A DNA stretch of 64,000 bases from Escherichia phage EJP2. Positions 1,886 to 23,333 of this stretch are shown piece by piece (the stretch's first letter is position 1; each line of letters opens with the position of its first letter). The notes beneath the pieces are model-generated. The model ran no database searches, was not told where the DNA came from, and saw nothing but the letters and a program-made list of their open reading frames with translations. The translations under genes and the position numbers were made by a program. The stretch is from the sequence record OQ411014.1. One strand, 5' to 3'.

Positions 1886-1895
1886 CGAGGTTTAT

Positions 1896-2534: not shown

Positions 2535-2535
2535 A

Positions 2536-2748: not shown

Positions 2749-2788
2749 CATTACAGTACTGTTCAAGATTTTCTAATAAGGATTATAT

Positions 2789-3582: not shown

Positions 3583-3605
3583 TGTACGCTTTTTAAGGAG
3601 TACTT

Positions 3606-3839: not shown

Positions 3840-3849
3840 GAGATATAAA

Positions 3850-4281: not shown

Positions 4282-4291
4282 GGAGTATATA

Positions 4292-5050: not shown

Positions 5051-5059
5051 GAGTGAGTT

Positions 5060-5614: not shown

Positions 5615-5624
5615 AGGATAAAAT

Positions 5625-5957
5625 ATGTATAAGATGTTTATAGACGACCTTCGGGATGCAGAGAAGCATTACCCAAATGAAGGATTCATCGTCACAAGGA
5701 CTTACAATGAAGCTGTACAGTACGTACAAGAACATGGTCTACCTAGTTTTGTTTCATTCGACCATGACTTGGGCGACACTGACAGTACTGATGAGAAGAC
5801 TGGATATTCTTTTGCTAAGTTCCTCATCGAGTACATGATTGATAACGATTTGCGGGAACCGTTTGAGTACTTTATTCACAGTGCTAATCCAGTTGGTGCA
5901 GAGAATATCAAACAGTACTTGCAAAATGGGTTCAACTTTATCCAAGGGCAAGCATGA
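5625..5957 (+). CDS. hypothetical protein
   Basis: 110-aa ORF with aaggat RBS. Confidence 0.45.
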   Translation: MYKMFIDDLRDAEKHYPNEGFIVTRTYNEAVQYVQEHGLPSFVSFDHDLGDTDSTDEKTGYSFAKFLIEYMIDNDLREPFEYFIHSANPVGAENIKQYLQNGFNFIQGQA

Positions 5958-6244
5958 AAGTAATAACATTTATTCTGATTTTGATTGTTGTTGTTGGTAT
6001 TCGCCTTAAAATAGCGGAGAACCAATACAACACTGAAAGACTGAATATTACGAAAGAATCTGGAACAGTAGTTGCAACTGGACAATGCAACAAATACACT
6101 TGTGCTTACTCTGTAAAAACCTCTAGTGGTTCTACAGTGAACAGTACTGGTGACACTCCGGTAAGTCTCGGTCAAATCGTATACCGTGAATGCTGGGAAG
6201 AAAGGGTCAGGGGTCCGCGTTGTTACGTAGACTTTAGACCATAA
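5954..6244 (+). CDS. hypothetical protein with N-terminal signal or anchor
   Basis: 96 aa; hydrophobic N-terminus VITFILILIVVVG; ATGA start/stop overlap with upstream gene. Confidence 0.4.
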   Translation: MKVITFILILIVVVGIRLKIAENQYNTERLNITKESGTVVATGQCNKYTCAYSVKTSSGSTVNSTGDTPVSLGQIVYRECWEERVRGPRCYVDFRP

Positions 6245-6269
6245 AACACTATCATGAAAAGGGAATTTT

Positions 6270-7724
6270 ATGAAAAAATATGCTATTGATACAAACGTAC
6301 TTCTAAGCGATCCAAACGCAGCAACCGCTTTCAAAGGTGCTACAGTGGTTCTACCATTTACAGTACTGGAAGAAATGGACTCCATCAAGAGTCGTGGTGT
6401 TGACGTTAGCCGTGATGCACGTGTAGCAATTCGCAATATCAGTAACATCCTGGAAGACGCGTCTCATGAAGAGATTAGTACTACTGGGGTTGATATGTCC
6501 AAACTACATCCACATTTAGATTCCGACAGTCGTCTAATGATTGTTACATCTGAAGAAGCTGAAGCACTTCTACGTGTTGCAGGTATTGATAAGTCCGATG
6601 CTGAACTTACAAAAGTTGCTACACTAATGAACAGTACTGTACCGGATGACAAGATTATTCTTGTTGCTCTAGCTACAGAATCAGTACTGGTTACTCGTGA
6701 TATCAACATGCGTATCAAAGCTATGGCTTATGGTGTTGAAGTTCAGGACTATCGTAGTGATGTTACTATTTCCGATTCTGACCTACTACATATTGGGAAC
6801 CACAAACTAGAGTTTTCGTTCTGGGATACCATTGCGGATCGTGGTTTAGAAGTTTTCAGTACTAAAGAAGGTCGTAACACTTATCAACTAATTGCTAAAG
6901 ATGCAATTCAGGATCTACTACCAGAAAATCTATGCGTTGGTGACTATCTATATGATGACACTGATTTGCTAATGGTATATGATGGAGAAGGTGATCGTGA
7001 GTTCTCTGATGGTGAAGTTGATGACACAGTGTACTCCGTGTTCATTGATGTTGGTCAACACAGTGCAATGCGTACTAAGATTTGGGATATCAAAGCTAAG
7101 AACGTGAAACAAGCAATGGCAATCAACAGTATTCTTGACCCTAATGTTCACTTGACAGTACTGTTAGGTTCTGCGGGTACAGGTAAGACTTTGATTACTC
7201 TAGCATGTGCACTAGAACTAACATTAGAGAAGCGTCAGTACGATAAAGTTATTTTCTCTAAAACCCAAGACTCACAGTTTGATGAAATTGGTTTCTTACC
7301 AGGAACCGAAATGGAAAAAATGCTTCCGAATTGTGGACCTGCACTGGATGCATTGGAATTCCTTCACAAAGATGATGCTAACCCTCAAGGTTCAATTGAA
7401 GAAATCATCAAACGTAATGTTGTACAATTCAAAGCACTGAACTTTATTCGTGGACGTTCGTTTACCAATACAATTCTAGTTGTTGATGAATTCCAAAACA
7501 TTACTCCGGCTCAAGCTAAAACTATCTTGACACGGGCAGGAATGAACTGTAAAGTTATCATCATGGGTAACTTAGCACAGATTGATAGTAAGTTTATCAG
7601 TTCTGTAAACAGCGGTTTGACCTATGTAGTTGAGAAGTTCAAAGATTGGGAAGGTTGTCGTATCATCGAACTCGAAGGTGTTGTACGTTCTGCACTAGCT
7701 GAATTCGCTGAAGAAAATATGTAA
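6270..7724 (+). CDS. phoH: PIN-domain / PhoH-like ATPase fusion
   Basis: N-terminal YAIDTNVLLSDP (PIN-like); Walker A LLGSAGTGKT; Walker B-like VVDEFQNI. Confidence 0.8.
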   Translation: MKKYAIDTNVLLSDPNAATAFKGATVVLPFTVLEEMDSIKSRGVDVSRDARVAIRNISNILEDASHEEISTTGVDMSKLHPHLDSDSRLMIVTSEEAEALLRVAGIDKSDAELTKVATLMNSTVPDDKIILVALATESVLVTRDINMRIKAMAYGVEVQDYRSDVTISDSDLLHIGNHKLEFSFWDTIADRGLEVFSTKEGRNTYQLIAKDAIQDLLPENLCVGDYLYDDTDLLMVYDGEGDREFSDGEVDDTVYSVFIDVGQHSAMRTKIWDIKAKNVKQAMAINSILDPNVHLTVLLGSAGTGKTLITLACALELTLEKRQYDKVIFSKTQDSQFDEIGFLPGTEMEKMLPNCGPALDALEFLHKDDANPQGSIEEIIKRNVVQFKALNFIRGRSFTNTILVVDEFQNITPAQAKTILTRAGMNCKVIIMGNLAQIDSKFISSVNSGLTYVVEKFKDWEGCRIIELEGVVRSALAEFAEENM

Positions 7725-7731
7725 TATATTG

Positions 7732-7758
7732 GGGGAGTTTCAATACTCCCCATTCATT
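7732..7758 (+). terminator. hairpin ggggagt/actcccc with interrupted T-tract
   Basis: inverted repeat directly after the phoH stop. Confidence 0.45.
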
Positions 7759-7971
7759 TGGACAGTACTATGAGTTTAGATTTGAACTTAGTTCGACACG
7801 CACTGTCACGGTTTGATTGGGCTGATACATTATTTTCGTTAGCTGAACAATCATTATCAACGGTTCCGGCTGATAACACTGACAGGCTTAAGCGTTTGTC
7901 GTTGTTATACAAAACACAAGCCTTAGTGAATCATGACAGAATTTTGAATAGAAGAAAAATGTTATAAATTA

Positions 7972-8001
7972 TTGAGACAAAACTCAATACTATGATATAA
8001 T
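7972..8001 (+). promoter_or_regulatory. sigma70-like promoter TTGAGA-N18-TATAAT with TGA extended -10
   Basis: ttgaga at 7972-7977, tgatataat ending 8001; member of the recurring promoter family. Confidence 0.55.
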
Positions 8002-8031
8002 AGATACATCAACAACAAAGAGGAAATAAAC

Positions 8032-8280
8032 ATGGAACAGAATAAAAAAGAAGCTCAAAACTCCCGTCGCGTAGCAATGGATAAACTATCCGCTCTAACA
8101 GAACTCAAGAAACTACGTCGTGACGGTATCCTAACTCGTCAACAGTTCCGTCGTGAAGTATGGGACAAAGGTCTACAAACTGGCGTGAAAGGTGTTCCAG
8201 AAATCACTGCTTTCGAAGTTGTGAAAGTAGATGGTAAGAAAGCACTAACCGTTCAAGTTCGTCCTTGGGGTCGTATCTGA
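8032..8280 (+). CDS. hypothetical basic protein
   Basis: 82-aa ORF, RBS agagga, downstream of promoter and upstream of strong terminator. Confidence 0.5.
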   Translation: MEQNKKEAQNSRRVAMDKLSALTELKKLRRDGILTRQQFRREVWDKGLQTGVKGVPEITAFEVVKVDGKKALTVQVRPWGRI

Positions 8281-8368
8281 AACGGGCATATTCTAAACAA
8301 TTTTGATAAATAACATTACAAGAATAATAATAAAGTTATTTAACTCCATGTTGTTTAGTTATACTTTC

Positions 8369-8397
8369 CAGCCCACTAATTTAGTGGGCTTTTTTTA
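8369..8397 (+). terminator. hairpin agcccact/agtgggct followed by T7
   Basis: perfect 8-bp stem, 5-nt loop, T-tract. Confidence 0.8.
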
Positions 8398-8409
8398 TGT
8401 GGTGACTAT

Positions 8410-9108
8410 ATGAATTTCGAACAGACAGTACTGAAAGCTGTTAGAGAACACGTAATATACTTCAGTGGTTACAGTACTTTTAGGGGGTATTACATCGTTG
8501 GTTCATTCATGCAATGTAAACGTTGTATCTTCATGGAACCTAAAGATATAGATGTAATTATTGTAACCAATGAGAAAGAAGAAATAGGTGAAAAGGAATA
8601 TAGTTTCTTCATTGAAGAAGCTGATAACATTGAAGTTAATGTTACAGTACTGACACCTGTTGAAAACCTAAATTCTATAATCAGACTCGAACCAAAGTAC
8701 TTTGATTCATTCTGTTCATCTAAGTCTCTTGAATGGGACATTGATGGTATTCGTAATATTTCTAATTCTGAAATCAGGTCTAAGGTCATGAAGTTCTCTG
8801 ACTTAGCTTTCAACAAAGGCAAAAAGAAACTCACCATAGAAAAAGATTACGATGAAGAATTAGGACTCAAGAATATTTGTCATGCTTATCGTTTTCTGAT
8901 TGATGCTATCCGGTTCTATTACCCATCTACACCTATGTTAGAGAAAGAGATGATGGACTTAGGTTATAGCAAGTACCGCAATCGGGTTTATAAAATTTAC
9001 AAAAATACGCAAGGTACACTTGACGATAAGTACCAAGCTATGGTAAAGTACGCTAAACCTGAATACAACAGGATGTGTTCAGAGTTTAGGAAATTGTTCC
9101 CTCGATAA
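8410..9108 (+). CDS. hypothetical protein
   Basis: 232-aa ORF; weak GS...DID nucleotidyltransferase-like pattern only. Confidence 0.45.
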   Translation: MNFEQTVLKAVREHVIYFSGYSTFRGYYIVGSFMQCKRCIFMEPKDIDVIIVTNEKEEIGEKEYSFFIEEADNIEVNVTVLTPVENLNSIIRLEPKYFDSFCSSKSLEWDIDGIRNISNSEIRSKVMKFSDLAFNKGKKKLTIEKDYDEELGLKNICHAYRFLIDAIRFYYPSTPMLEKEMMDLGYSKYRNRVYKIYKNTQGTLDDKYQAMVKYAKPEYNRMCSEFRKLFPR

Positions 9109-9119
9109 AAGGAGTTTAT

Positions 9120-9410
9120 ATGCAATACAGACCACTATACGACCATGTTCTTGCTAAACAGATTGTTCATGAAGCTAAGAGTTCTTTTGGTATCATCCTG
9201 AACAGTACTGGTGTAGAAGAGACAACTACTGCTACTGTTGTTGCAGTTGGTACTGGGTCGAAGAATAGCCTAGGGAAAGTTATTCCAGTTGGTGTAAACG
9301 TAGGTGATGTGGTATCATTCAGTCCTGATGCTGCTGTTCATCGTGTTACACTAGATGGTACTGAATATCTTGTTATGCGTAAAGATTGCATCTTAGGCGT
9401 ACAGGAATAA
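9120..9410 (+). CDS. GroES-like co-chaperonin (Cpn10)
   Basis: RPLYDHVLAK, AVGTG, VNVGDVV, ILGVQE align with E. coli GroES RPLHDRVIVK, AVGNG, VKVGDIV, ILAIVE. Confidence 0.75.
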   Translation: MQYRPLYDHVLAKQIVHEAKSSFGIILNSTGVEETTTATVVAVGTGSKNSLGKVIPVGVNVGDVVSFSPDAAVHRVTLDGTEYLVMRKDCILGVQE

Positions 9411-9411
9411 C

Positions 9412-9445
9412 ATAAAGGGAGCCATTATGGTTCCCTATTTTTATG
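9412..9445 (+). terminator. hairpin gggagccat/atggttccc followed by T-rich tract
   Basis: inverted repeat with one G-U pair after co-chaperonin gene. Confidence 0.55.
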
Positions 9446-9456
9446 AGGTCAATATA

Positions 9457-9798
9457 ATGAACGTGAATACCAGTACTGAACGATTGAAAATTTACGAAAC
9501 ACTAGAACGATATCTTGATATTGATGAAGTTAGTCCACAATATATTATTGACATTTTACAAAAACACGTCGATAATAATCCAGGAAAATGCCTTGTATGT
9601 TATTGCAACGAAGATATGTTAGAAATAACTGCTTCACACTTGGAAACTGATGAAGAATATAACGCCAGACAAAACTTTATCCAACAGCAGCAAGAACGAA
9701 AAGAAACTGAAAAACACATGAAAGCACTGATGAAGAAGTCATCACTCAGTACTGAAGAAAAAGCACTCCTAATCAAATACATTGAGGAAAACAAATGA
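9457..9798 (+). CDS. hypothetical protein
   Basis: start moved to ATG 9457 (gagg RBS, downstream of terminator); coiled-coil-like C-terminus. Confidence 0.45.
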   Translation: MNVNTSTERLKIYETLERYLDIDEVSPQYIIDILQKHVDNNPGKCLVCYCNEDMLEITASHLETDEEYNARQNFIQQQQERKETEKHMKALMKKSSLSTEEKALLIKYIEENK

Positions 9799-10568
9799 AT
9801 CGTGAAAAGATGCTTTATCATGCAAAAGAAAAGGGTTGTTTGAATTTTGATATCTACACAATGAAACGTGAAACACGTGATAACCTGGACTTCCTTTTGG
9901 ATGGTGACTTTTTAGATTTCAAAACAGACAGTGCATTCGGTAATGATCGCAACAGTAAATGGCAGGAATACGTAATCACCAATAGGGGTATTGCATTACT
10001 GGGAGTGTATCGTCTTGAGTATGCACATCTCAATGAACGTGATACTGAAAAACATATCGGTCGCATCGAACAACTTCGTGAATTACTTGATGTTGTTGAT
10101 GTAAAGCTAACTGATATTGAATATGCATTTACGAATAACCAACGTAAATCAGTGAACTACATGAACACCAACTATCCTACTGGTGCAAGTACATTAGTTC
10201 ACAAGATAAAAGAACAAGAAAAAAGTGTTGACACAACTCCCAATGATGAGCTATCATTACTCTCGTTGTTTGAGTTCAGTACTGAATTAGGTAAAAAAGG
10301 TTCCAGTACTAAACGCTCTGACGATTATGTCCTGAAGAAGTGTATGGAAGAACTTGGTGAGTTAGCTCTTGAAGTTACTATCAGTCAAGGTGAATCCTAC
10401 AAAGAACCAGGCAAAGATGGTGTCAAAGGTGAAGCAGTAGATTTAGCGATTTGTGCACTTGACATGTTCGCATTACAATGTAATAATATGAGTCCAGACG
10501 AGATAGAACGTGAGTTCTTGACTTATATGACAACTAAAGTGAATAAGTGGAGAAATACTCTAAAATGA
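9795..10568 (+). CDS. hypothetical protein
   Basis: 257-aa ORF; the C-terminal stretch ELGELALEV...GEAVDLAICALDM is acidic but matches no family motif recognised here. Confidence 0.45.
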   Translation: MNREKMLYHAKEKGCLNFDIYTMKRETRDNLDFLLDGDFLDFKTDSAFGNDRNSKWQEYVITNRGIALLGVYRLEYAHLNERDTEKHIGRIEQLRELLDVVDVKLTDIEYAFTNNQRKSVNYMNTNYPTGASTLVHKIKEQEKSVDTTPNDELSLLSLFEFSTELGKKGSSTKRSDDYVLKKCMEELGELALEVTISQGESYKEPGKDGVKGEAVDLAICALDMFALQCNNMSPDEIEREFLTYMTTKVNKWRNTLK

Positions 10569-10843
10569 GTAACACTAACAGTACTATCAAAGTTGAATGG
10601 TATGATAAAGTTACTGAAGTTCGTGCTCAGTGGGAGAATAATCATTTTATCTCTGACGGCGGGTTAGCTGGGCGAATCTACTTCAGTGATGAGTTCAATC
10701 AAGAATGGAGTGCTGGTGAACCTAAGTATTCAGTACTCCACGATGATGGACAATCTTCAGTAGTAGAGTTCGATGAAGAATGTGAGGAATTTGTTTCTGT
10801 TCAATCACATTTACCAATTATCTATTACAACAAAGAGAAATAA
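10565..10843 (+). CDS. hypothetical protein
   Basis: ATGA overlap with upstream stop; 92 aa. Confidence 0.45.
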   Translation: MSNTNSTIKVEWYDKVTEVRAQWENNHFISDGGLAGRIYFSDEFNQEWSAGEPKYSVLHDDGQSSVVEFDEECEEFVSVQSHLPIIYYNKEK

Positions 10844-11037
10844 TGAAAAAAGTTCTTGCAGTACTGCTATCTACTATGATAGTATCTTGTTCTGCTCCTG
10901 ATGTTAAACCTGGTGAAGCATACCAGGTTTATCCTGGACTGGTACAATTACAAATGCAGGGTGCAACGTACTCTTGTCATGAAATTCACGAAGATAATAC
11001 TCTATCTTTAATGTGTCGCAAAAACCGAATGAGGTAA
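10843..11037 (+). CDS. small putative lipoprotein
   Basis: signal peptide ending in lipobox-like IVSC; 64 aa. Confidence 0.4.
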   Translation: MKKVLAVLLSTMIVSCSAPDVKPGEAYQVYPGLVQLQMQGATYSCHEIHEDNTLSLMCRKNRMR

Positions 11038-14526: not shown

Positions 14527-16332
14527 ATGAAACATGATAAACTATACGCAGATGTGAACGATTTCTTGAGTCAGAGTAATCCTGATATTCTACAAGAGAA
14601 TGCTAACAAAGATTCCAAAATGGTGAATACTCACAGGGATTTACTCGCTGGGATACTTTCCAAACACTTCGCAGAGGAAGTTATCTCAGATGATTTGATG
14701 AAGTGGCATACTGAAGGTTATGGTCATATTCATGATTTAGATTACTACATTAGCCCGTTGACTAACTGTTGTTTAGTGAACTATCAAGAGATGCTAGAGA
14801 ATGGTTTCAAATTGGGTAATGCACAAGTTGGTTCCCCTAATAGCATTGGTGTAGCGTGTACAGTACTGACACAGATAGTACTGGCAGTTTCAGCTTCACA
14901 GTACGGTGGACAGTCCTTAGCTCACATTGATGCCGGATTAGCTCCGTATGTTCGGAAATCTCACGAACGTCTATTGAAGGAACAAGAAAAGTATAATCTA
15001 CCAGATGAATACGTTACTTCTGCTCTTGAGAAGGAAGTGTATGATTCTATGCAAGCAGTACTGTACCAAGTGAATACCATCACAAGTTCCAATGGACAAA
15101 CGCCTTTTATATCTATTAGCTTAGGTTTGGACACTTCTGTGTATGGTCGGATGATTACTTCTGCGTACTTGAAAGTTCATGAGAAAGGTCTAGGTAAAGA
15201 TGGTACTACTCCTGTATTCCCTAAAGTTATTTTCTTTTTGGATGAAGGTACTAACTTCAAGCCTAATGACCCAAATTACGATCTAAAGGTACAAGCGATG
15301 CAATGTGCATCAAAACGCATCTATCCTGACTTTGTTTCAGTACCGAAGAATAAAGAAGTAACTGGCAGTACAAGTACAGCAGTAACACCTATGGGTTGTC
15401 GTTCTTTCCTGTCACAATGGAAAAACGATGACGGTACTGAACAATACAACGGTCGCTTCAACTTAGGTGTAGTATCCATCAACTTACCGCTAATTGCTCT
15501 TGAAAGTCCGTCAGAAGAGGATTTCTATAGTAATGTGCGTCATCATATGGATATTGCATTCAGAGCACAGATGAACCGTGTAGAGCGTCTAAAGAGCATG
15601 AAAGCGAAGCAGAACCCTACACTTTTCATGGAAGGGGCAATTGCTCGTCTAAAAGCAGATGACACTATCGAAGAGCTATTTTATGATGGTTATGCGAGTA
15701 TTAGTATTGGATATGTCGGTTTAGCTGAATGTTCAGACATTTTACGTTCAGGACTGGATAAAGATTTTTGTGTAGAAATCCTGACCTTTATGAAAAATAT
15801 TTGTAATTCCTATACTGAAAACTCCAAAATCGCTTTTAGTCTGTACGGTACACCTGCGGAGTCATTATGCTACAAATTTGCGAAATGTATCGAGAAAAAG
15901 CATCCTTCAGTACTGAAACGTGATTTTATCACTAACTCATTCCATCAACCAGTTTGGGTGGATAGTACTCCATTTGAGAAGTTCAAATACGAAGAAGGGT
16001 TCTCTTTGCTCAGTAATGGTGGTAATATCAGTTACGTTGAAACTCCTAACCTTGCACAGAATATGAAGGCTCTAGAAGGTATTATTGACTATGCTTATCA
16101 CAGAATCCATTATTTTGGAATCAACCAGCCTGTTGACAGATGTTATGCTTGTCAGTTCAATGGTGAGTTCAAAGTAGATAAAAATGGGTTTCATTGTCCA
16201 CAATGTAATAACCGAGACGAAACGAAGATGTCTGTCATTAGACGTGTTTCTGGGTACTTGAGTTCTCCTAATAGCCGTCCTTTCAACAAAGGTAAGCAAC
16301 AGGAAGTAATTGTAAGGGTAAAACATAAATGA
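14527..16332 (+). CDS. nrdD: anaerobic ribonucleoside-triphosphate reductase
   Basis: 601 aa; C-terminal RVSGYLSSPNSRPFNKGKQQE glycyl-radical-type tail; immediately followed by radical-SAM activase. Confidence 0.85.
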   Translation: MKHDKLYADVNDFLSQSNPDILQENANKDSKMVNTHRDLLAGILSKHFAEEVISDDLMKWHTEGYGHIHDLDYYISPLTNCCLVNYQEMLENGFKLGNAQVGSPNSIGVACTVLTQIVLAVSASQYGGQSLAHIDAGLAPYVRKSHERLLKEQEKYNLPDEYVTSALEKEVYDSMQAVLYQVNTITSSNGQTPFISISLGLDTSVYGRMITSAYLKVHEKGLGKDGTTPVFPKVIFFLDEGTNFKPNDPNYDLKVQAMQCASKRIYPDFVSVPKNKEVTGSTSTAVTPMGCRSFLSQWKNDDGTEQYNGRFNLGVVSINLPLIALESPSEEDFYSNVRHHMDIAFRAQMNRVERLKSMKAKQNPTLFMEGAIARLKADDTIEELFYDGYASISIGYVGLAECSDILRSGLDKDFCVEILTFMKNICNSYTENSKIAFSLYGTPAESLCYKFAKCIEKKHPSVLKRDFITNSFHQPVWVDSTPFEKFKYEEGFSLLSNGGNISYVETPNLAQNMKALEGIIDYAYHRIHYFGINQPVDRCYACQFNGEFKVDKNGFHCPQCNNRDETKMSVIRRVSGYLSSPNSRPFNKGKQQEVIVRVKHK

Positions 16333-16799
16333 ACTACCAAACTATCGTAATTGATGATATGGTGAACGGTGAGGGCATTCGCTGCTCTCTGTTCGTCAGT
16401 GGGTGCAGTCATGGCTGTGAAGGGTGTTTCAACGAAAAAGCGTGGGATTATCGCTCTGGATTTGAATACACTACCAGTACTGAAGAATGTATCCTAGAAG
16501 AGCTTCAGAAGGATTATGTGAGTGGTTTATCGCTATTAGGTGGTGATCCACTCATGCCGAAGAACATTATTGAGGTAATTGCTCTTTGTAAGAAAGTAAA
16601 GGAACAATTCCCAAATAAGACCATTTGGTGCTGGAGTGGGTACACTTTAGAGGAAATCCAAGAGAATCATGCTAAGGACGTATTACAGTACTTAGATGTT
16701 CTTGTGGATGGAAAGTTCGACTTAGAGAAGTATGACAGTACTGTTCAGTTCAGGGGTTCGAGTAATCAACGAATTCTGTATAAAGGTACTGACTTTTGA
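16329..16799 (+). CDS. nrdG: anaerobic RNR activating protein (radical SAM)
   Basis: CSHGCEGC radical-SAM cysteine cluster; 156 aa; ATGA overlap with nrdD. Confidence 0.8.
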   Translation: MNYQTIVIDDMVNGEGIRCSLFVSGCSHGCEGCFNEKAWDYRSGFEYTTSTEECILEELQKDYVSGLSLLGGDPLMPKNIIEVIALCKKVKEQFPNKTIWCWSGYTLEEIQENHAKDVLQYLDVLVDGKFDLEKYDSTVQFRGSSNQRILYKGTDF

Positions 16800-16803: not shown

Positions 16804-16828
16804 AGGCTCCTTTATGGAGCCTTTTCTA
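16804..16828 (+). terminator. hairpin aggctcc/ggagcct followed by T-rich tract
   Basis: perfect 7-bp stem after nrdG. Confidence 0.7.
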
Positions 16829-16881
16829 TTATAAAGGAGGTATAAATAAGTTATCGGATATCTATAACTAAGGGATATGAA

Positions 16882-19581
16882 ATGACTAAAAGAATTTATG
16901 GAGGCTTAGACGTTACTCATAACGTAACAGTTCAGGGCAAAAGGACAGTACAAGGTATCAATAATCAAGTATTCGATGCGAATGGTGATATGAAGATTAA
17001 TACCTATACTCAACAGGAATTACTCGATATTGTTAGCTTAATGCCAATATCACACTACGGTACTCACAACTACTTACCTGCTGGTGTTAGTGGGGACTTT
17101 AATGGTGCAGCGGAGAACCCAGCACAACGTAGAAACAAAATCCTACTGGAGAACGATGGTACACTAGTAATGCTACGTGCTGGTACAAACGGCAGTGTAG
17201 AAGGTTTATTCTATGCTTACCTACCAAATGCACTATCAGTTACTGATTTAGGTAGAGGTGTAAACACTGGTCGTCAGTACAAGCCAGGTTATTTTGGTAG
17301 TACTAAAACTGCTTTCGGTTTGTATAATACAGATGAGAACATTCTTCTAGGAAGATATTCTGATTCGTCAAATGGCAGTACTGGATGGTTTATTTCCATT
17401 ACTAACGGAACACTAGATGACACACAACATAATGGTTTCTTCTTGAATGCTTATACTGATATTGCCCCTCAAGGTGGTGTTGAATATGCAATGATGGCAG
17501 AAGATGGTTCAATTTACGTATTCAGTGTAGATACAAGTAATAACGAATTTAATATTGCAGTTGTTAGAGTTACTTTCAATTTGACGAATAAAACTTACAC
17601 AGCGTCAAGAATCACTGGTTGGACAACCAAGACGTTCTATAATACTACATATTCAGCAGATACTAATATTGTAGTGACGAAGAAAGTAAACTCAACTAAT
17701 ATCGCTGATAAGCCATATATGTACGTTCCGAATGGACTACTTGGTTTAGGTGTATACATGACGTCAATTGACTTGTGTGTAGCACAACAGCCAGGTACAC
17801 AGAACTTCCGCTTTAGAGTTAATGGTGATGCGTGGGCTACTATGGCAACGTATAATACCAGACCACAGCACAGTTATAGTTTCAACTTCAATATGAGTAC
17901 TAAACAATGTACGCTGGATGCAGGGAATGACATTGGTTCAAACGCAGCACCATTTATTGTTACTAATACAGGTTCACAATTAATTGCTTCTGGTAACGTA
18001 ATCAACCAAGATGATTTATATAATCACGGTGGGTGGAGAAACATTTATAGTTCTTACTATTACTTGGATATTGGTACAGTATTCTGTACTACGAGTCCTA
18101 ACTTGTCAGAACCATTGGGGATTGAAAAAGCAACATACCCAGCACAAAGTGTTTACAGTATGCTTAACGTAAGAGCAGTCAATGCATCAGCATTCAATAA
18201 AGGGAATCTTGGTCCTTCGTTCGGTTCAGCAGTTGGTTCTTACATTAACGGCGTAGAATTACTACCAGGTAACAGTACTAAACAATTCTCTCGTTCTTCT
18301 GGTACTGGTGCATTTAGACCATCATATGCAGTACATGCTGCTTCACCTACCTTTACGTTTAAATCTCTTTCAAGAGGTACAATGAAAGGTTATGAGCCTA
18401 CTGCTGAACGTGATTTCATTACAGATAATATAAACAACCGTATTTTCATTAGTACTGTATCTGGTTCGAATGTTACGACAAATGGTGGGATTTTCATGGT
18501 TGGTCAACGTTATTCACAGTCTTTGTCATTTGACAAACATGGTGTTGGTACTGGAACAATCTCGGTCACTGATTCAGTACTGGTAAATTTCAGAAATTCT
18601 GAATATGCAAAAGTACCTGCTTCATGGAATCTTTCTACAGCAGCAACTAAAGATATGACACTATTTGTTCCACAACAAACTGATATTCCTGCTTTTGTAA
18701 TGTTAAGTACTGTTACTACTGGAAATAAAAACTATATTAAGATTGTGGAAGTGAACGTTAATACCAGAAGTGGTAATATTACTTCAATTAGTTTTAAGCG
18801 TAATGTAATTGAAAACGTTTATGGTGATAGTTTTACACCAAATGGTGCTGGTGGTTTTGCTTCATCTTCTGTAGGTTTAACAATATATGATGGCGGTTCG
18901 TTCTACTTTATTGGTGGTTCAGATCCTTTATCTCACCCAACAATTGGCAATACGAATACACATCAATTCAGAGCTATTGTTACTAAAAGTACTGCACAAT
19001 TTGACAGCTTTATTATTTCAGGTTCACATGCTAGTTATGAACAGGGTATTCAACCTGCTGCTCTTCCTGGTATTGGCTTTGGGTATTTCCAAGCAATTGA
19101 CTACTCAAACAAAATGACATTCCAGAAATGTGGTACTACTGTTGCTGAATATAATGCATGGACAGCAATTGGTGATCCAATTAACGTAGTTTCACAAGAC
19201 GTTGCACAAGGATTTGTTGTTTACTTCAACGAAGAAACACCAGTAATGCTCAGTGGTAAGTCATTTACGATGCCAGTTCAAAGTGTTGATTTGAAAACTA
19301 TTAAAGCTAACCCAGCGAATACGACATTCCACATTTATGTGAGAATGAACCAAGGTAATGCAGAATATCATATAACTACTGAAGTTATTTCCGAAACTGG
19401 TAGTACTGCATATAACGTATTCTGGATTGGTACTGTTACTACGGATGCTATCCAAATCTCGACTATTAATGTATTCAAGCGTTCTCGTTTGGATGTATTT
19501 GGTGCATCACTTGAACCAACCGGATCATCATTCCCAGTGAGTTATGGTCTACCATCAGGCAACGGAACAATTAACTGGTAA
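16882..19581 (+). CDS. putative tail fibre / receptor-binding protein (paralog A)
   Basis: 899 aa, S/T/G/N-rich; N-terminal similarity to 20188 ORF; shared C-terminal motif ending GTINW. Confidence 0.5.
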   Translation: MTKRIYGGLDVTHNVTVQGKRTVQGINNQVFDANGDMKINTYTQQELLDIVSLMPISHYGTHNYLPAGVSGDFNGAAENPAQRRNKILLENDGTLVMLRAGTNGSVEGLFYAYLPNALSVTDLGRGVNTGRQYKPGYFGSTKTAFGLYNTDENILLGRYSDSSNGSTGWFISITNGTLDDTQHNGFFLNAYTDIAPQGGVEYAMMAEDGSIYVFSVDTSNNEFNIAVVRVTFNLTNKTYTASRITGWTTKTFYNTTYSADTNIVVTKKVNSTNIADKPYMYVPNGLLGLGVYMTSIDLCVAQQPGTQNFRFRVNGDAWATMATYNTRPQHSYSFNFNMSTKQCTLDAGNDIGSNAAPFIVTNTGSQLIASGNVINQDDLYNHGGWRNIYSSYYYLDIGTVFCTTSPNLSEPLGIEKATYPAQSVYSMLNVRAVNASAFNKGNLGPSFGSAVGSYINGVELLPGNSTKQFSRSSGTGAFRPSYAVHAASPTFTFKSLSRGTMKGYEPTAERDFITDNINNRIFISTVSGSNVTTNGGIFMVGQRYSQSLSFDKHGVGTGTISVTDSVLVNFRNSEYAKVPASWNLSTAATKDMTLFVPQQTDIPAFVMLSTVTTGNKNYIKIVEVNVNTRSGNITSISFKRNVIENVYGDSFTPNGAGGFASSSVGLTIYDGGSFYFIGGSDPLSHPTIGNTNTHQFRAIVTKSTAQFDSFIISGSHASYEQGIQPAALPGIGFGYFQAIDYSNKMTFQKCGTTVAEYNAWTAIGDPINVVSQDVAQGFVVYFNEETPVMLSGKSFTMPVQSVDLKTIKANPANTTFHIYVRMNQGNAEYHITTEVISETGSTAYNVFWIGTVTTDAIQISTINVFKRSRLDVFGASLEPTGSSFPVSYGLPSGNGTINW

Positions 19582-19590
19582 GGAGAAATT

Positions 19591-20178
19591 ATGCCATTAC
19601 AATACAGAACGGACGTGAACGCAGCAGGACAAATTAAAGTACAGAATAAAACAACTGGTGTTTCTATTACATCAGGTAACGGTCAAGTATATTCTACAAC
19701 ATCTGCGGGGGCGATTACGTTCCCAGTACTGACAACTGATGATGTGGATTATATTACACTTGAATTACCACTCTCTCAGTTCGGAGAATTGTATGAGAAT
19801 ACTAGTCTTAATATTACAAGTACTGGTTTAGTACTGAAGTTTAATAGAATAATTCCACTCTTCATGAGTGGGATTTACTACGATGTTCCAGTTCAGAACA
19901 TCACAGCACAAGCTGCAACGTCAGGTACAGCAACATATTATGTGTATGTTAAACTAGAACTTGGTGCACCAAAATATTTCATCTCCAGAACAGAAGGTGT
20001 TGAGAACGAAATAACCATGTTCATAGGTACTATCACAGTAAGTACTACCACAATAACAGCAATCAATATTAACAAAGTTTCCAGATTCGGTACATACAGA
20101 CCGAGTACTACACAGAAAGGTTCTTCTTTCCCTGTCAGTACTGGACACCCTTCACAAACTGGTTCAATTAACTGGTAA
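19591..20178 (+). CDS. fibre-associated protein sharing the C-terminal motif
   Basis: 195 aa ending RPSTTQKGSSFPVSTGHPSQTGSINW, paralogous to C-termini of flanking ORFs. Confidence 0.45.
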   Translation: MPLQYRTDVNAAGQIKVQNKTTGVSITSGNGQVYSTTSAGAITFPVLTTDDVDYITLELPLSQFGELYENTSLNITSTGLVLKFNRIIPLFMSGIYYDVPVQNITAQAATSGTATYYVYVKLELGAPKYFISRTEGVENEITMFIGTITVSTTTITAININKVSRFGTYRPSTTQKGSSFPVSTGHPSQTGSINW

Positions 20179-20187
20179 GGAAATAAC

Positions 20188-22941
20188 ATGTCATCTAAAA
20201 GAGTAATAGGTTCAGTTGAGTTTTTAAGTAACTTAGCTGTAAATGGGAAATACGCAATGCGTTCCTTTAATGGTGTCAATCCAGATGCCAATACTGGTAT
20301 AATCACTTATCCATTTTATACCAGAGAAGAAGTTCAGAAGATTCTCGATATACTCCCTGTTTCACGTATAGGTGAAATGGACTATCTACCACCGAACGTA
20401 AGTGGTTCCTTTAGTGGAGCTACTTCATTCTCGAATGATCGCAGAGTTCAGCCATGTATTATTGAAGATGATGGTACAGCCGTAATTATTCGCCCTGGTA
20501 CGAATGGTAGTCAGTTTGATTTTTATTATGCTTACATCCGTAACGTCAGAAATATCCCAACTCTAACACAAAGTGATATTGTTCAGACGAATACCAGATA
20601 TCACCCATCATATCTTACTAGTACTCAAAAGATTGAACAATTTTACGGTACTGATGGATATGATCTTCTTTGGTACAGAGTTTCTGACTCAGTTAATAGT
20701 TCAAACTATTTTGCAATTACATTAACTAACGGTTCCTTTAACGTAGTAGGTCACCAACATGCTCTTATTCCACAAACATCTATGCCTAATTTCACACCAG
20801 CATATGCTCATATCGTGAATGGTTCAGTATACATGTGGGGCTATGACAGTACTTTAGGTTCAGGTAGAGCATTGAAGTTATACACTATCCCAACTAGTTC
20901 GTTGCGTTCTGGTGTTACTACTGGTTTAACTGCTGTCACTGGATTTAATGGAAAAACTATCAACGGTAATGCTTATACAGCAGCCAGTACTGCTAGGATT
21001 TATGATACATATGCAAGTACTACCAGTACTGCTGATTGCTTAATTCAATACACGTCTAACATGTATTCTCCTGAATATCACGACTACGCCATCTCCAATG
21101 CAATGGCGGCTGGTAATGCTGATAATACACAGATTCGTTTCACTATGTTCCCTACATATCGTTACGGTTCTGCGTATGGTTTTAGTGGTATATTCATGTA
21201 CGCAATTAGTTTAGTCTATAATATCAGTACTAAAACATTTACGTACGATACTACATCTTTAGGTAAAATTGTGGTGAATGCTACACTAAATGGTTCTACA
21301 ATGACCTATACAGAAACTGCTAACCCATATTTGGTTGATGCAACTTCATGGCGTGGTTTTGGTGCAAGTCTAGGTAACTGTGGAACAATCTGTCAAGCAG
21401 GTGATGGTTTCATGGTGAGTACTCGCTCTCGTTGGGCAAGTTCTGCTCCTTACGGTGTCAGTACTTCTAAGATTAATAACTTTACTTCTCAATTCGATTC
21501 TATTAAAATGACTGGTAGAAGTGTTACTGCAAATACTCAACTATTTGCTAACCCAATCTACGGTTCTGCAATTGGTGAGAACTTGATGGGTCCACGTCTG
21601 TTAAGTAAAACTCGTATGATTCTTGCATGTTCAGGTACATACGATGGTGTATCCAACGCAAGCTATGACAATACTGTAGTTGCGGACTTCGGTACTGATT
21701 CGAACTTCTCATACAAGTCAATGACTCAAGGTACACTTACTGGGTATGCACCACAAACGTATCGTAAATTCGCTAATAATGACAACTTCAGACTATCAGA
21801 ATTAGTAACACTAATGGACAGTACTGGTAATGTTCAAGCAAGTAGTACTGCATTCATCGAGAACGTTAAGTACACTGGTGGGATTGGTATTAACCCTGAT
21901 ACACTTGAATACACTGGCAGTACTGTTAATATGTCCAATGCAGTTATCCAATCACTTAAACAAGGTATTGCAACTTCTGCTGGTATTCCATTGAATACAA
22001 GTTTGCTTACAGTGTATTACATTCCTGATACATCATATTGCAATCACCAAGCAGTACTAATGGTTCGTAATCCTGATAACACTGGCGTTGTAGTACTAGC
22101 TGAAATGAATTTAACTACAAGTACTTCTGGAAGTACAATTACTGTTACTGGTGGTTCTGTAATAAGAACTTTCGTTCAGAACAGACCAAATATTACTTCA
22201 GTAAATGGTGGGAACTACGCTCGTAACGTTGGTGTTTGTGCTGGTAAATTCAGTGGTTTTAATTACCTTAGTGTTCACTCAGCGAATAACTTTGGTGTTC
22301 CTGGTGATGCAAGGTCTTATTCGTTCTTTGCAAAAGTTAAGGGTGGTGCTATAGTATCACAGAGAATCGATGAGTCCTATTATTCACAGACATATGGCAG
22401 GACTGGTGGTTTCCTACCAGGGAAAGGTTTCGGTTATTATGATAACTCAGTGAGTGATTACCAGACCAAATCCGTGTTCCAACTCTTCGGTACTACTGAA
22501 GCACAGATGGATGCACTAATTGCTGGTACTGGAACATCAACACCTGTTGTTGTTATGTCTCAAGAAGTTCCTGAAGGTTTTAGTGTTTACTTTACACAAG
22601 AACTACCAGTATTCTTAGGTGGTATGTACGATAAGCTACCAATCCAGACAGTTGATTTGAGAACTATCAAAGCTGATCCATCCAATACTACTTTCTATAT
22701 CTACGTATCAATGGATAGAAGTAAAGGTGAAGCATCATACGTTATCAGTACTGCACTCTTGGATGAAACTCTAACCAGAGCATTCATTGGTACTATTGTG
22801 ACTATTGATGCAGGTATTGACCGGATTGATGCAGAGAAGGTAACACGCTTCTTGACTTACAGACCAAGTACTTACAAGAGGGGTTCTGCAATCCCTGCGA
22901 GTACTGGTGTTCCATCTGGGACTGGTTCACGCTGGCATTAA
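20188..22941 (+). CDS. putative tail fibre / receptor-binding protein (paralog B)
   Basis: 917 aa; N-terminal region YTREEVQKILDILPVSRIGEMDYLPPNVSGSFSGA parallels the 16882 ORF; C-terminus RPSTYKRGSAIPASTGVPSGTGSRWH. Confidence 0.5.
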   Translation: MSSKRVIGSVEFLSNLAVNGKYAMRSFNGVNPDANTGIITYPFYTREEVQKILDILPVSRIGEMDYLPPNVSGSFSGATSFSNDRRVQPCIIEDDGTAVIIRPGTNGSQFDFYYAYIRNVRNIPTLTQSDIVQTNTRYHPSYLTSTQKIEQFYGTDGYDLLWYRVSDSVNSSNYFAITLTNGSFNVVGHQHALIPQTSMPNFTPAYAHIVNGSVYMWGYDSTLGSGRALKLYTIPTSSLRSGVTTGLTAVTGFNGKTINGNAYTAASTARIYDTYASTTSTADCLIQYTSNMYSPEYHDYAISNAMAAGNADNTQIRFTMFPTYRYGSAYGFSGIFMYAISLVYNISTKTFTYDTTSLGKIVVNATLNGSTMTYTETANPYLVDATSWRGFGASLGNCGTICQAGDGFMVSTRSRWASSAPYGVSTSKINNFTSQFDSIKMTGRSVTANTQLFANPIYGSAIGENLMGPRLLSKTRMILACSGTYDGVSNASYDNTVVADFGTDSNFSYKSMTQGTLTGYAPQTYRKFANNDNFRLSELVTLMDSTGNVQASSTAFIENVKYTGGIGINPDTLEYTGSTVNMSNAVIQSLKQGIATSAGIPLNTSLLTVYYIPDTSYCNHQAVLMVRNPDNTGVVVLAEMNLTTSTSGSTITVTGGSVIRTFVQNRPNITSVNGGNYARNVGVCAGKFSGFNYLSVHSANNFGVPGDARSYSFFAKVKGGAIVSQRIDESYYSQTYGRTGGFLPGKGFGYYDNSVSDYQTKSVFQLFGTTEAQMDALIAGTGTSTPVVVMSQEVPEGFSVYFTQELPVFLGGMYDKLPIQTVDLRTIKADPSNTTFYIYVSMDRSKGEASYVISTALLDETLTRAFIGTIVTIDAGIDRIDAEKVTRFLTYRPSTYKRGSAIPASTGVPSGTGSRWH

Positions 22942-22946: not shown

Positions 22947-22980
22947 ACTCAATTGAGGTTGTCTATTGACAGCCTCTTTT
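22947..22980 (+). terminator. hairpin aggttgtc/gacagcct followed by T7
   Basis: 8-bp stem with one G-U pair, overlaps -35 of next promoter. Confidence 0.55.
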
Positions 22981-22994
22981 TTTCTTGATATAAT
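22966..22994 (+). promoter_or_regulatory. sigma70-like promoter TTGACA-N17-TATAAT
   Basis: ttgaca 22966-22971, tataat 22989-22994 preceded by tga. Confidence 0.55.
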
Positions 22995-23021: not shown

Positions 23022-23333
23022 ATGCAATACAGAACACCAGTACTGATCAATCGATACAAAAGTAAAGACTTTGATGTTTACATTGGTCGTGGGACAAAAT
23101 GGGGAAACCCGTTCCCAATCGATGAAGCATGTGGTCAAACTCGCCTAATCGTTATTGAAATGTACAGACACCAAATGTATGAATGGCTAGAAAATGGAAC
23201 CATCACTGTTCAGGATATTTTGGATTTATCGGGAAAAACCATTGCATGTTCTTGTGCACCAAAGGCATGTCATGGAGATATAATCATAGAGGTATTCAAT
23301 GAAATAGTGAGTATGATGAATGCAGGAACATAA
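23022..23333 (+). CDS. DUF4326-like small protein
   Basis: FDVYIGRGTKWGNPF resembles the YIGR...WGNPF signature recalled for DUF4326. Confidence 0.55.
   Translation: MQYRTPVLINRYKSKDFDVYIGRGTKWGNPFPIDEACGQTRLIVIEMYRHQMYEWLENGTITVQDILDLSGKTIACSCAPKACHGDIIIEVFNEIVSMMNAGT

What the first reader, a model, noticed from the sequence alone, without database searches (positions are those of the whole stretch)
16882..22941. Three consecutive fibre-like proteins sharing a C-terminal motif
Two large S/T/G/N-rich proteins (899 and 917 aa) and one short protein (195 aa) end in a common motif (R.S...GS..P.S.G.PS.[NT]G[ST]..W), and the two large ones also share an N-terminal block. This suggests a duplicated receptor-binding module with a common C-terminal anchoring or chaperone-recognition segment, possibly supporting dual host range. 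A fourth fibre-like gene is on the opposite strand at the window end.
Basis: seen in the sequence. Interest (0 to 1): 0.45.

Follow-up and report, generated by a model that had tools for sequence, protein, structure and literature searches.

The report
Jumbo-phage propeller protein trio, one bodyless
Three adjacent late genes of a Rak2-like giant phage encode related minor virion proteins that are compact beta-propeller proteins rather than fibres, and the short one is a copy that has lost its whole middle and keeps only the two end pieces all three share.

Summary
The three ORFs are real: 16882-19581 (899 aa), 19591-20178 (195 aa) and 20188-22941 (917 aa). They are homologous well beyond chance. 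The two large proteins align over their full length (E 2e-69). The short one matches their C-terminal ~120 aa (E 1e-17 to 1e-19) and also their N-terminal ~62 aa (hhalign E 2e-12).

They are not fibres. AlphaFold2 models the 899-aa protein (pLDDT 86) as a beta-propeller-type body. That body is followed by a ~100-aa beta-sandwich resembling the "shoulder" of lactococcal phage p2 RBP, Mtd and SPP1 gp22, then a disordered Gly/Ser/Pro tail ending in Trp.

The trio is a self-contained late unit: terminator, conserved ATAAATA motif, three coupled genes, terminator. It sits directly after nrdD-nrdG, the slot where phage RaK2 carries its tailspike depolymerases. Orthologues were detected at low abundance in phAPEC6, GAP32 and fENko-Kae01 particle preparations.

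The 195-aa protein is the orthologue of the full-length CBB_148, so it is an internal-deletion derivative. Large-plus-mini pairs also occur in distant jumbo phages.

Most likely these are low-copy host-surface (glycan) binding or cleaving tail proteins whose shared ends are assembly or attachment modules. Dual host range is unsupported. No family member has been characterised.

The parts
16804..16822 (+). Terminator-like hairpin plus T-run directly after the nrdG stop. It marks the upstream boundary of the trio's transcription unit.
   Evidence: The scan found it. An equivalent hairpin plus T-run sits upstream of the p1 orthologues in Turkey5, phAPEC6, Munch, Kae01 and CBB. Munch annotates a terminator at this position.
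16841..16848 (+). TATAAATA, a T4-type late-promoter-like motif 40 nt upstream of the p1 ATG.
   Evidence: Sequence. The ATAAATA core is conserved at -39 to -42 in six relatives although the rest of the spacer differs. The same motif lies 52 nt upstream of the tail sheath gene. All 10 window copies are on the coding strand. The CBB paper proposes ATAAATA as the late/structural promoter.
16882..19581 (+). p1, 899 aa, a large paralogue. It is the orthologue of phAPEC6 gp323c, CBB_147 and 121Q 499.
   Evidence: ORF. PHROG 3573 match at E 1.5e-246. Identity is 72-77% to Asteriusvirus orthologues. AF2 model has pLDDT 86 and pTM 0.80.
16882..17067 (+). p1 N-terminal module (aa 1-62), shared with p2 and p3. 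It contains the YT..E...I...P.S.YG motif and is low-confidence in the monomer model.
   Evidence: hhalign of the p2 N-terminus against the large-protein N-terminus: 97.7%, E 2e-12. pLDDT is below 50 for aa 1-21 and 41-59.
17068..19173 (+). p1 body (aa ~63-764). It is an all-beta, beta-propeller-type region followed by a long-stranded beta-sandwich-like region. It carries family-wide conserved E90, R99, Y111, Y133, H183, R310, R510 and D740.
19174..19476 (+). p1 C-terminal nine-strand beta-sandwich (aa ~765-865), the shared 'shoulder-like' domain.
   Evidence: Strand pattern. It is equivalent to p2 aa 75-160, whose model matches lactococcal phage p2 RBP, Mtd and SPP1 gp22. hhalign 99.9%.
19477..19578 (+). 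p1 C-terminal Gly/Ser/Pro-rich tail ending in Trp (KRSRLDVFGASLEPTGSSFPVSYGLPSGNGTINW).
   Evidence: Corrected motif. pLDDT ~40. The motif is conserved in CBB_147-149, EL ORF114/115 and Agricanvirus gp19. G881, G889 and W899 are at least 96% conserved across 76 members.
19591..20178 (+). p2, 195 aa, the 'bodyless' paralogue. It consists of the N-module (aa 1-67, 19591-19791), a 9-aa linker and the C-module (aa 77-195, 19819-20175). It is the orthologue of the full-length CBB_148.
   Evidence: Orthology scores: N-terminus 115 against 41 and 37, C-terminus 307 against 176 and 213. PHROG 26864. Conserved at 195 aa in many phages. The Kae01 CDS_169 orthologue was detected by LC-MS/MS.
20188..22941 (+). 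p3, 917 aa, the second large paralogue. It is the orthologue of CBB_149, 121Q 501 and Kae01 CDS_170, and its shared C-module is aa 797-917 (22576-22938). It is the fastest-evolving member of the trio.
   Evidence: Identity is 45% to Turkey5, 63% to Munch and 34% to CBB, while the flanking nrdD is 69-75% to all three. pN of the body is 0.45 against 0.21 for p1.
22955..22976 (+). Terminator-like hairpin (9 bp stem) plus T-run, 14 nt after the p3 stop. It marks the downstream boundary of the unit.
   Evidence: Munch annotates a terminator at the same place.
22966..22994 (+). Perfect sigma-70 consensus promoter (TTGACA-17-TATAAT with TG) that starts the next, unrelated gene block.

Best explanation
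The region is a self-contained late transcription unit of a Rak2-like jumbo myophage. It encodes three old paralogues that are minor components of the particle.

Architecture (shown). p1 and p3 (~900 aa) have four parts: a ~60-aa N-terminal module; a large beta-propeller-type body with an extra beta-sandwich; a ~100-aa 'shoulder-like' beta-sandwich; and a ~30-aa Gly/Ser/Pro tail ending in Trp. p2 (195 aa) is the orthologue of a full-length third paralogue. It has lost the whole ~710-aa body and keeps only the two end modules.

Inferred function of the ends. The shared N- and C-terminal modules are assembly or attachment modules. They would let the three proteins either co-assemble (for example as a trimer built on the shoulder-like domain) or dock on the same acceptor at the tail or baseplate periphery.

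Inferred function of the bodies. The propeller bodies contact the host surface by binding, or possibly cleaving, a carbohydrate. p2 would then serve as a structural filler or adaptor that occupies a subunit position without a body.

Shown versus inferred. Shown: homology, architecture, orthology, operon structure, synteny, and particle detection in relatives. Inferred: location on the tail, oligomeric state, and glycan binding.
For: - Homology and architecture; AF2 models.
- Shared C-domain resembles the attachment/trimerisation 'shoulder' of lactococcal phage p2 RBP, Mtd and SPP1 gp22 (Foldseek probability 1.0, E 2e-3).
- The termini are more conserved than the body: 0.58-0.78 against 0.40-0.56 identity among orthologues, and likewise across 76 distant members. 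Both termini are low-confidence in the monomer models, as expected for segments that fold only in a complex.
- Particle detection in relatives: phAPEC6 gp323c, 4 peptides; GAP32 orthologues of CBB_148 and CBB_149; Kae01 CDS_169 (195 aa) and CDS_170 at low counts.
- Late unit: terminator, conserved ATAAATA at about -40, stop codons embedded in the next gene's Shine-Dalgarno sequence (TAAGGAG, TAAGGAA), terminator.
- Position: RaK2 has its tailspike/depolymerase cluster ORF525w-534 directly after nrdD-nrdG and has no family member there.
- Evolutionary rate: the trio evolves faster than its flanks and p3 is the fastest.
- 1:1 orthology of p1/p2/p3 with CBB_147/148/149.
- Large-plus-mini neighbours sharing both ends recur in two distant contigs.
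- The family's lengths are bimodal: among the top 150 representatives, 50 are minis and 75 are of ~900 aa.
Against: - No member of the family has been localised on a virion, and none has a demonstrated ligand or activity.
- The proteomic signals are weak (2-4 peptides or spectra). The Kae01 preparation was only ultrafiltered, so particle membership is not proven.
- The body carries near-invariant polar residues across hosts as different as E. coli, Erwinia, Pseudomonas and Xanthomonas. That fits a conserved enzymatic or internal structural site better than a host-specific receptor surface.
- The shoulder-like domain is C-terminal here, whereas it is N-terminal in the siphophage RBPs.
- Oligomeric state could not be modelled.
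- Relatives (Kae01, and reportedly SHEFM2K) use flagella as their receptor, and nothing links this trio to flagella.
Confidence: 0.5

Rival explanations
1. The proteins are purely architectural tail or baseplate-periphery proteins (framework or decoration, like the large outer-baseplate proteins of phiKZ) with no receptor role. The conserved polar residues would be internal structural contacts.
For: - The body has near-invariant residues across very different hosts.
- Homologues in EL (ORF114/115) and Agricanvirus (gp19/20) lie among virion structural genes.
- Jumbo-phage baseplates contain many large accessory framework proteins (phiKZ atlas).
Against: - The trio evolves much faster than its flanks and shows mosaic affinities.
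- It occupies the RaK2 tailspike slot.
- The propeller-plus-sandwich architecture is typical of carbohydrate-active or carbohydrate-binding proteins.
- There is no sequence similarity to phiKZ gp26/27/28.
Confidence: 0.22
2. The large proteins are virion-borne enzymes: beta-propeller glycosidases or polysaccharide lyases acting as depolymerases. The conserved E/R/H/Y/R residues would form the active site, so the trio would be a functional replacement for RaK2's beta-helix depolymerases.
For: - E90, R99, H183 and R510 are conserved at 99-100%. A His/Tyr/Arg combination is the chemistry described for beta-propeller lyases; this point rests on my own knowledge and was not tested here.
- The trio occupies the same locus as the RaK2 depolymerases.
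Against: - No GH or PL Pfam family matches.
- There are no Asp-box motifs.
- The spatial clustering of the conserved residues could not be checked.
Confidence: 0.15
3. p2 is not a structural subunit. It is instead an assembly factor or decoy: a chaperone-like template that uses the shared end modules to help p1 and p3 fold or trimerise, or that regulates how many docking sites they occupy, and is then released.
For: - p2 keeps exactly the two modules that are disordered in the monomer models.
- It is encoded between the two large genes with a coupled translation start.
- Minis follow large genes in distant lineages.
Against: - Its full-length orthologue was found in GAP32 particles.
- The 195-aa Kae01 orthologue was found in the >300 kDa fraction.
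- Mimasvirus phages do without any mini: tblastn found only three places in CBB, corresponding to its three large paralogues CBB_147-149.
Confidence: 0.12
4. One reading: these are elongated tail fibres, duplicated to give two receptor specificities (dual host range), with a C-terminal chaperone-recognition tag.
For: - S/T/G/N-rich composition.
- Two divergent large paralogues.
- In distant homologues the N-terminus has a helical, tail-fibre-like leader.
Against: - The confident AF2 model is globular and propeller-type, not fibrous.
- The duplication predates the split of several genera.
- No chaperone gene lies nearby.
- The C-terminal tag is also kept by a protein that has no receptor-binding body.
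Confidence: 0.05

Closest known systems
Uncharacterised orthologues in Rak2-like jumbo phages: phAPEC6 gp323c (plus two unannotated ORFs), 121Q 499-501, Munch 169-171, fENko-Kae01 168-170, CBB_147-149, GAP32_143-145 (PHROGs 3573 and 26864)
   Same: - Full-length homology at 45-77% identity.
- Same position directly after nrdD-nrdG.
- Same late-promoter-like motif and bracketing terminators.
- Same large-mini-large order in Asteriusvirus and the Munch group.
   Different: - The window phage matched no record of the phage collection at more than about 77% identity.
- Affinities are mosaic: p1 is closest to the E. coli Asteriusvirus phages, while p2 and p3 are closest to the Munch/Kae01 group.
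- CBB has three full-length copies and no mini (tblastn finds only three places in the record); GAP32 carries orthologues of all three.
- None of these proteins has an assigned function.
Shoulder domain of lactococcal phage p2 receptor-binding protein (ORF18), SPP1 gp22, and the N-terminal beta-sandwich of Bordetella phage BPP-1 Mtd
   Same: The shared ~100-aa beta-sandwich gives its best structural matches to these (Foldseek probability 0.9-1.0, E 2e-3 to 1e-1). In those proteins the domain builds the trimer and attaches it to the tail tip (my own knowledge of the published structures).
   Different: - Only 9-16% identity and no sequence-level relation.
- Here the domain is at the C-terminal end, after the functional body, and is followed by a short tail rather than a neck and head.
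- Trimer formation was not tested.
phiKZ gp131-gp135 paralogue family (peripheral fibre complex)
   Same: A jumbo-phage set of adjacent paralogues that share a terminal module and differ elsewhere. gp131 carries a beta-propeller, and the paralogues are proposed to co-assemble through the shared module into a hetero-oligomer on the baseplate periphery.
   Different: - No sequence match to any PDB chain, which includes the gp131 crystal structure.
- In phiKZ only the N-terminus is shared, whereas here both ends are shared.
- phiKZ itself was not among the listed tblastn hits for the C-module, although EL was.
RaK2 / K64-1 tailspike-depolymerase cluster (ORF525w-534)
   Same: It occupies the same genomic slot immediately downstream of nrdD-nrdG in a related genome, and its products are virion proteins detected by MS.
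   Different: There is no homology: profile searches of the RaK2 region find nothing. RaK2's genes are annotated as tail fibre/tailspike proteins similar to K1-5, K5 lyase and K11 gp17. The trio consists of propeller proteins.
Beta-propeller carbohydrate-binding or carbohydrate-active proteins (AAL fucose lectin, GH43/GH32/GH130, sialidases, PL24 lyases) and propeller-bearing phage RBPs (staphylococcal phi11 Gp45, phi92 endosialidase)
   Same: The overall fold class of the body, and for GH43/GH32 the order propeller followed by beta-sandwich.
   Different: The scores are low (TM 0.2-0.4, Z no higher than 12.6). No family HMM matches and no Asp-boxes are present. Blade number and active-site geometry could not be determined.

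Membership tests
Rak2-like CBB_147-149 / phAPEC6 gp323 family (PHROG 3573 and 26864) | Full-length profile match to the family | tested here: met
   p1 matches PHROG 3573 at E 1.5e-246, p3 at 1.2e-206, and p2 matches PHROG 26864 at 8.3e-63. There are 50 full-length homologues.
Rak2-like CBB_147-149 / phAPEC6 gp323 family (PHROG 3573 and 26864) | Conserved position directly downstream of nrdD-nrdG, as a three-gene block | tested here: met
   The same order is seen in Turkey5, phAPEC6, Munch, Kae01 and CBB.
Rak2-like CBB_147-149 / phAPEC6 gp323 family (PHROG 3573 and 26864) | Presence in the virion | not testable with these tools
   Only relatives' proteomics are available: phAPEC6 gp323c, GAP32 orthologues, and Kae01 CDS_169/170 at low counts.
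Phage tail fibre (elongated trimeric fibre) | Extended fibrous fold (beta-helix, coiled coil or repeats) over most of the length | tested here: not met
   The AF2 model has pTM 0.80 and is a compact all-beta, propeller-type fold. There are no fibre Pfam families.
Lactococcal p2 RBP shoulder / SPP1 gp22 / Mtd beta-sandwich | Structural similarity of the beta-sandwich | tested here: inconclusive
   These are the top Foldseek hits with probability up to 1.0, but E is only 2e-3 and TM 0.42 over the whole 195-aa model, which contains a confident ~95-aa core.
Lactococcal p2 RBP shoulder / SPP1 gp22 / Mtd beta-sandwich | N-terminal location and trimer formation | tested here: not met
   Location: the domain is C-terminal here (aa ~765-865 of 899), so this part is not met.
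phiKZ gp131-like peripheral fibre proteins | Sequence or close structural similarity to gp131 | tested here: not met
   No PDB sequence hit with either a single sequence or the family profile. gp131 is not among the top 50-60 fold hits.
phiKZ gp131-like peripheral fibre proteins | Adjacent paralogues sharing a terminal assembly module | tested here: met
   By analogy only: the N-module and the C-module are shared by all three genes.
Beta-propeller glycoside hydrolases / sialidases / polysaccharide lyases | Family HMM match or signature motifs (Asp-box, GH32/43 catalytic motifs) | tested here: not met
   No Pfam or NCBIfam hit. No Asp-box.
Beta-propeller glycoside hydrolases / sialidases / polysaccharide lyases | Propeller fold with a conserved polar constellation | tested here: inconclusive
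   The fold class is supported. E90, R99, H183 and R510 are 99-100% conserved. Their spatial clustering could not be examined.
RaK2-type tailspike depolymerases | Homology to the RaK2 ORF525w-534 proteins | tested here: not met
   tblastn and profile searches of the RaK2 region find only nrdD, nrdG and the DUF4326 gene.

The most novel reading that the evidence does not exclude
The three gene products form one obligate hetero-oligomer, for example a 1:1:1 heterotrimer built on the shoulder-like C-domain and the common N-terminal module. It would be an asymmetric host-binding device in which one subunit position can be filled by a bodyless subunit. This large-plus-mini design, which recurs in distant jumbo phages, would be an undescribed way of building a phage adhesin. 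It would also give a function to a Pfam-less family of more than 500 sequence clusters.
Probability: 0.2. Interest if true: 0.6.

Novelty: new variant of a known kind. Interest (0 to 1): 0.4.

Why it matters
Rak2-like and Asteriusvirus jumbo phages are being isolated as therapy candidates, yet their host-recognition apparatus is essentially unmapped. Most of their genes are annotated as 'hypothetical', and phAPEC6 did not even annotate two of these three genes.

This work gives the trio a testable identity. It is a late, particle-associated set of propeller proteins sitting in the slot where RaK2 keeps its depolymerases.

It also shows that the small gene is a bodyless paralogue that keeps only the assembly ends. 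That pattern recurs in distant jumbo phages. If the ends prove to be co-assembly or docking modules, they would mark where new binding bodies could be grafted to retarget these phages. The family (537 clusters at 50% identity, no Pfam entry) would also gain a function.

Tried and rejected
- Pfam, NCBIfam and PDB sequence searches (single sequence and family profile) gave nothing meaningful.
- phiKZ gp26/gp27/gp28 were tested because gp27 is 898 aa and forms the outer baseplate framework. There is no similarity. EL ORF113, a possible mini, also shows none.
- The word-indexed search with the C-domain profile returned only short relatives without annotation.
- I asked whether the trio explains the host difference between fENko-Kae01 (Klebsiella) and Munch (Salmonella). 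It cannot, because the trio is 98-99% identical between them, like the rest of the region.
- I looked for recent gene conversion or long DNA repeats between the three genes. Only a 75-nt stretch at 71% identity in the C-terminal motif region was found.
- dN/dS estimates are only rough because synonymous sites are near saturation (pS 0.6-0.7).
- The idea that these proteins are the 119-nm 'hairs' of CBB and phAPEC6 is unlikely, because the predicted fold is globular, but it cannot be excluded for the hair bases.
- Papers on fEgEco12, Sharanji and JP4 contain nothing on these genes.
- The SHEFM2K flagellar-receptor study is not in the library.
Full report
**Context**

The window belongs to a Rak2-like jumbo myophage. 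Over the finding, the nucleotide matches in the phage collection are 72-74% identical and lie in Asteriusvirus coliphages (PBECO4, 121Q, phAPEC6, Turkey5). The upstream 16.8 kb matches 121Q, Serratia phage BF and Erwinia phages. Identical proteins occur only in metagenome-derived Logan assemblies. The window also carries the tail sheath (45286-47931) and tail tube (49631-50725) genes, about 22 kb downstream of the finding. The finding itself sits among nucleotide-metabolism genes, directly after nrdD (14527-16332) and nrdG (16329-16799).

**Checking the observation**

- The three ORFs exist as described: p1 16882-19581 (899 aa), p2 19591-20178 (195 aa) and p3 20188-22941 (917 aa).
- p1 and p3 are homologous along their whole length (31% identity, phmmer E 2.4e-69).
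- p2 aa 76-195 matches the last ~120 residues of p1 (E 5e-17) and of p3 (E 2e-19).
- No other ORF in any frame of the window matches. Profile-profile comparison gives 99.9% probability.
A version with corrected spacing fits all three and nothing else in the window.
- The composition claim holds: S+T+G+N is 0.38 against 0.25 in other ORFs.
- p2 is therefore the two ends of a large paralogue joined by a 9-residue linker, without the ~710-residue middle.

**What the proteins look like**

With a 51-sequence alignment, AlphaFold2 gives a confident model of p1 (mean pLDDT 86, pTM 0.80).

- Residues 1-62 and 869-899 are low-confidence.
- Residues ~63-760 are all-beta. They start with four-strand repeats typical of propeller blades and continue into a region of long strands.
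- Residues ~765-865 form a nine-strand beta-sandwich.

The p2 model has a confident core at aa 70-165, which is the same nine-strand sandwich. Its best structural matches are the lactococcal phage p2 receptor-binding protein, Bordetella phage Mtd and SPP1 gp22 (Foldseek probability 0.9-1.0, E from 2e-3). From my own knowledge of those structures, the matched part is the 'shoulder' sandwich that forms the trimer and attaches it to the tail.

No Pfam, NCBIfam or PDB sequence match exists for any member tested. PHROGs lists the family as of unknown function.

**Transcription unit**

- A terminator-like hairpin follows nrdG (16804-16822).
- TATAAATA lies 40 nt before the p1 start (16841-16848).
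- The stop codons of p1 and p2 are embedded in the next gene's Shine-Dalgarno sequence (TAAGGAG, TAAGGAA).
- A second terminator-like hairpin (22955-22976) follows p3. It overlaps a perfect sigma-70 promoter that starts the next block.
- The ATAAATA core is kept at -39 to -42 upstream of the p1 orthologue in Turkey5, phAPEC6, Munch, Kae01 and CBB, although the rest of the spacer has diverged. Each copy is preceded by a hairpin and T-run.
- The same motif precedes the tail sheath gene. All ten copies in the window are on the coding strand, and the motif is under-represented overall.
- The CBB authors proposed ATAAATA as the late promoter of structural genes in CBB and GAP32.

Late co-expression with the virion genes is therefore likely, but it is inferred.

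**Evidence from relatives**

- The block is conserved as large-195 aa-large in Turkey5, phAPEC6, Munch and fENko-Kae01. The phAPEC6 record simply does not annotate the second and third ORFs, although both are intact.
- CBB has three full-length paralogues instead, CBB_147/148/149, each similar to a GAP32 protein (GAP32_143-145).
- Orthology is one-to-one: p1 with CBB_147, p2 with CBB_148 at both its N- and C-ends, and p3 with CBB_149.
- p2 therefore descends from a full-length gene by loss of the body. It has since been kept at 195 aa with 30 invariant positions across many phages.

Proteomics in relatives:

- phAPEC6 gp323c, the p1 orthologue, was found in purified virions (4 peptides; PMC7247149).
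- The GAP32 orthologues of CBB_148 and CBB_149 were found in GAP32 virions, according to the CBB paper's comparison table (PMC5259590 supplement).
- In fENko-Kae01 the 195-aa CDS_169 and the 921-aa CDS_170 were seen at 3 and 2 spectra in a >300 kDa ultrafiltered preparation (PMC11218385 supplement).

All of these signals are weak, as expected for low-copy components. None localises the proteins on the particle.

**Genomic slot**

In RaK2, nrdD-nrdG is followed immediately by the tail fibre/tailspike cluster ORF525w-534. Profile searches find no member of the present family in that 50-kb region. The propeller trio thus occupies the place where a related phage keeps its known host-recognition and depolymerase genes.

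**Evolutionary rate**

| Gene | vs Turkey5 | vs Munch | vs CBB |
|---|---|---|---|
| nrdD (flank) | 69% | 75% | 75% |
| p1 | 72% | 62% | 47% |
| p2 | 58% | 66% | 49% (C-module only) |
| p3 | 45% | 63% | 34% |

- The values are amino-acid identities.
- The body of p3 has the highest non-synonymous divergence.
- Within p1 orthologues the two ends are more conserved than the body.
- This pattern of stable ends and a changeable middle, with mosaic affinities, is what is usually seen in host-interaction proteins. It is less extreme here than in typical receptor-binding tips.

**The wider family**

- An exhaustive profile search finds 537 cluster representatives at E up to 1e-3, of which 316 are at E up to 1e-10.
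- Among the best 150, lengths are bimodal: 50 proteins of 150-260 aa and 75 of 850-1050 aa. The shared module is almost always at the very C-terminus.
- A few longer proteins carry further domains after the module.
- The C-module and its tail motif are recognisable in Pseudomonas phage EL ORF114/115 and in Agricanvirus gp19.
- In two distant contigs a ~950-aa member is followed at once by a 229-235-aa protein that shares both its N-terminal ~100 aa and its C-terminal ~115 aa with its neighbour. The large-plus-bodyless pairing is therefore recurrent, not an accident of one lineage.
- Across 76 diverse large members (median 26% identity to p1), E90, R99, H183 and R510 are 99-100% conserved. Y111, Y133, R310 and D740 are 86-97% conserved.
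- That conservation suggests a conserved pocket in the body, either catalytic or ligand-binding. I could not inspect coordinates to check whether the residues cluster.

**Interpretation**

The best-supported reading is a late operon for three paralogous minor particle proteins. The shared N- and C-terminal modules would serve assembly or attachment. The propeller bodies would act on the host surface, most plausibly on a carbohydrate. p2 would fill a subunit or docking position without a body.

Several observations fit co-assembly but do not prove it:

- The three paralogues are kept one-to-one across genera.
- Their C-modules have paralogue-specific sequence signatures.
- Their genes are translationally close-packed.
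- The shoulder-like fold is trimeric in its known relatives.

The fibre reading is contradicted by the fold prediction. The dual-host-range idea has no specific support because the triplication is ancient.

Relatives of this phage bind flagella (reported for SHEFM2K). Whether the trio has any part in that is unknown.

**Verdict**

It is wrong about their shape and about the short gene. The family is already sequenced in many phages and was detected in proteomes, but it is entirely uncharacterised. The bodyless-paralogue architecture and the slot equivalence with RaK2's tailspikes were not mentioned in the papers I read. Interest is moderate.

Noticed in passing
L002 (phAPEC6, MK817115.1) 7698-8285 and ~8302-11031: The GenBank record of phAPEC6 leaves the intact orthologues of p2 (195 aa) and p3 (~910 aa) unannotated. 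The published virion proteome therefore could not have reported them.
   Followed up: partly
window, 10 sites: 8306, 16842, 26541, 29144, 41999, 45234, 48006, 48068, 51732, 59255: ATAAATA is under-represented (10 copies against 21 expected) and every copy is on the + (coding) strand. Several copies lie 30-55 nt upstream of ORF starts, including the tail sheath gene. This is consistent with a T4-like late promoter that is selected against elsewhere.
   Followed up: partly
window 22955-22994: A terminator-like hairpin overlaps a perfect sigma-70 consensus promoter (TTGACA-17-TATAAT with an extended TG). It forms a sharp boundary between the late trio and the following DUF4326/nucleotidyltransferase genes.
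   Followed up: no
window 16329-16332 versus relatives (L001, L002, L008, L007): In this phage nrdD and nrdG overlap directly. Turkey5, phAPEC6, Munch, Kae01 and RaK2 have one or two small genes between them (glycyl-radical cofactor/vs.6, nrdA.1-like). The DUF4326 gene at window 23022-23333 is the counterpart of Munch gene 175. It is only ~40% identical to the copy that lies between nrdD and nrdG in Turkey5 and RaK2.
   Followed up: partly
It is an ORF of at least 550 aa running towards the window end. It matches PHROG 14293 (unknown function), has no Pfam hit and shows no similarity to the trio. It lies next to a thymidylate synthase gene (61357-62289).
   Followed up: partly
L009 (JGI 3300034161, 218-kb contig) 1-9354: Immediately upstream of the distant family member lies an array of at least ten adjacent paralogous genes carrying PF25613 (DUF7941), all on the opposite strand.
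   Followed up: no
window 16882-22941 versus L001/L008: Affinities are mosaic within the trio. p1 is closest to the E. coli Asteriusvirus phages (72-77%), whereas p2 and p3 are closest to the Salmonella/Klebsiella Munch-7t3-Kae01 group (63-66%). This suggests an old recombination boundary near the p1/p2 junction.
   Followed up: partly
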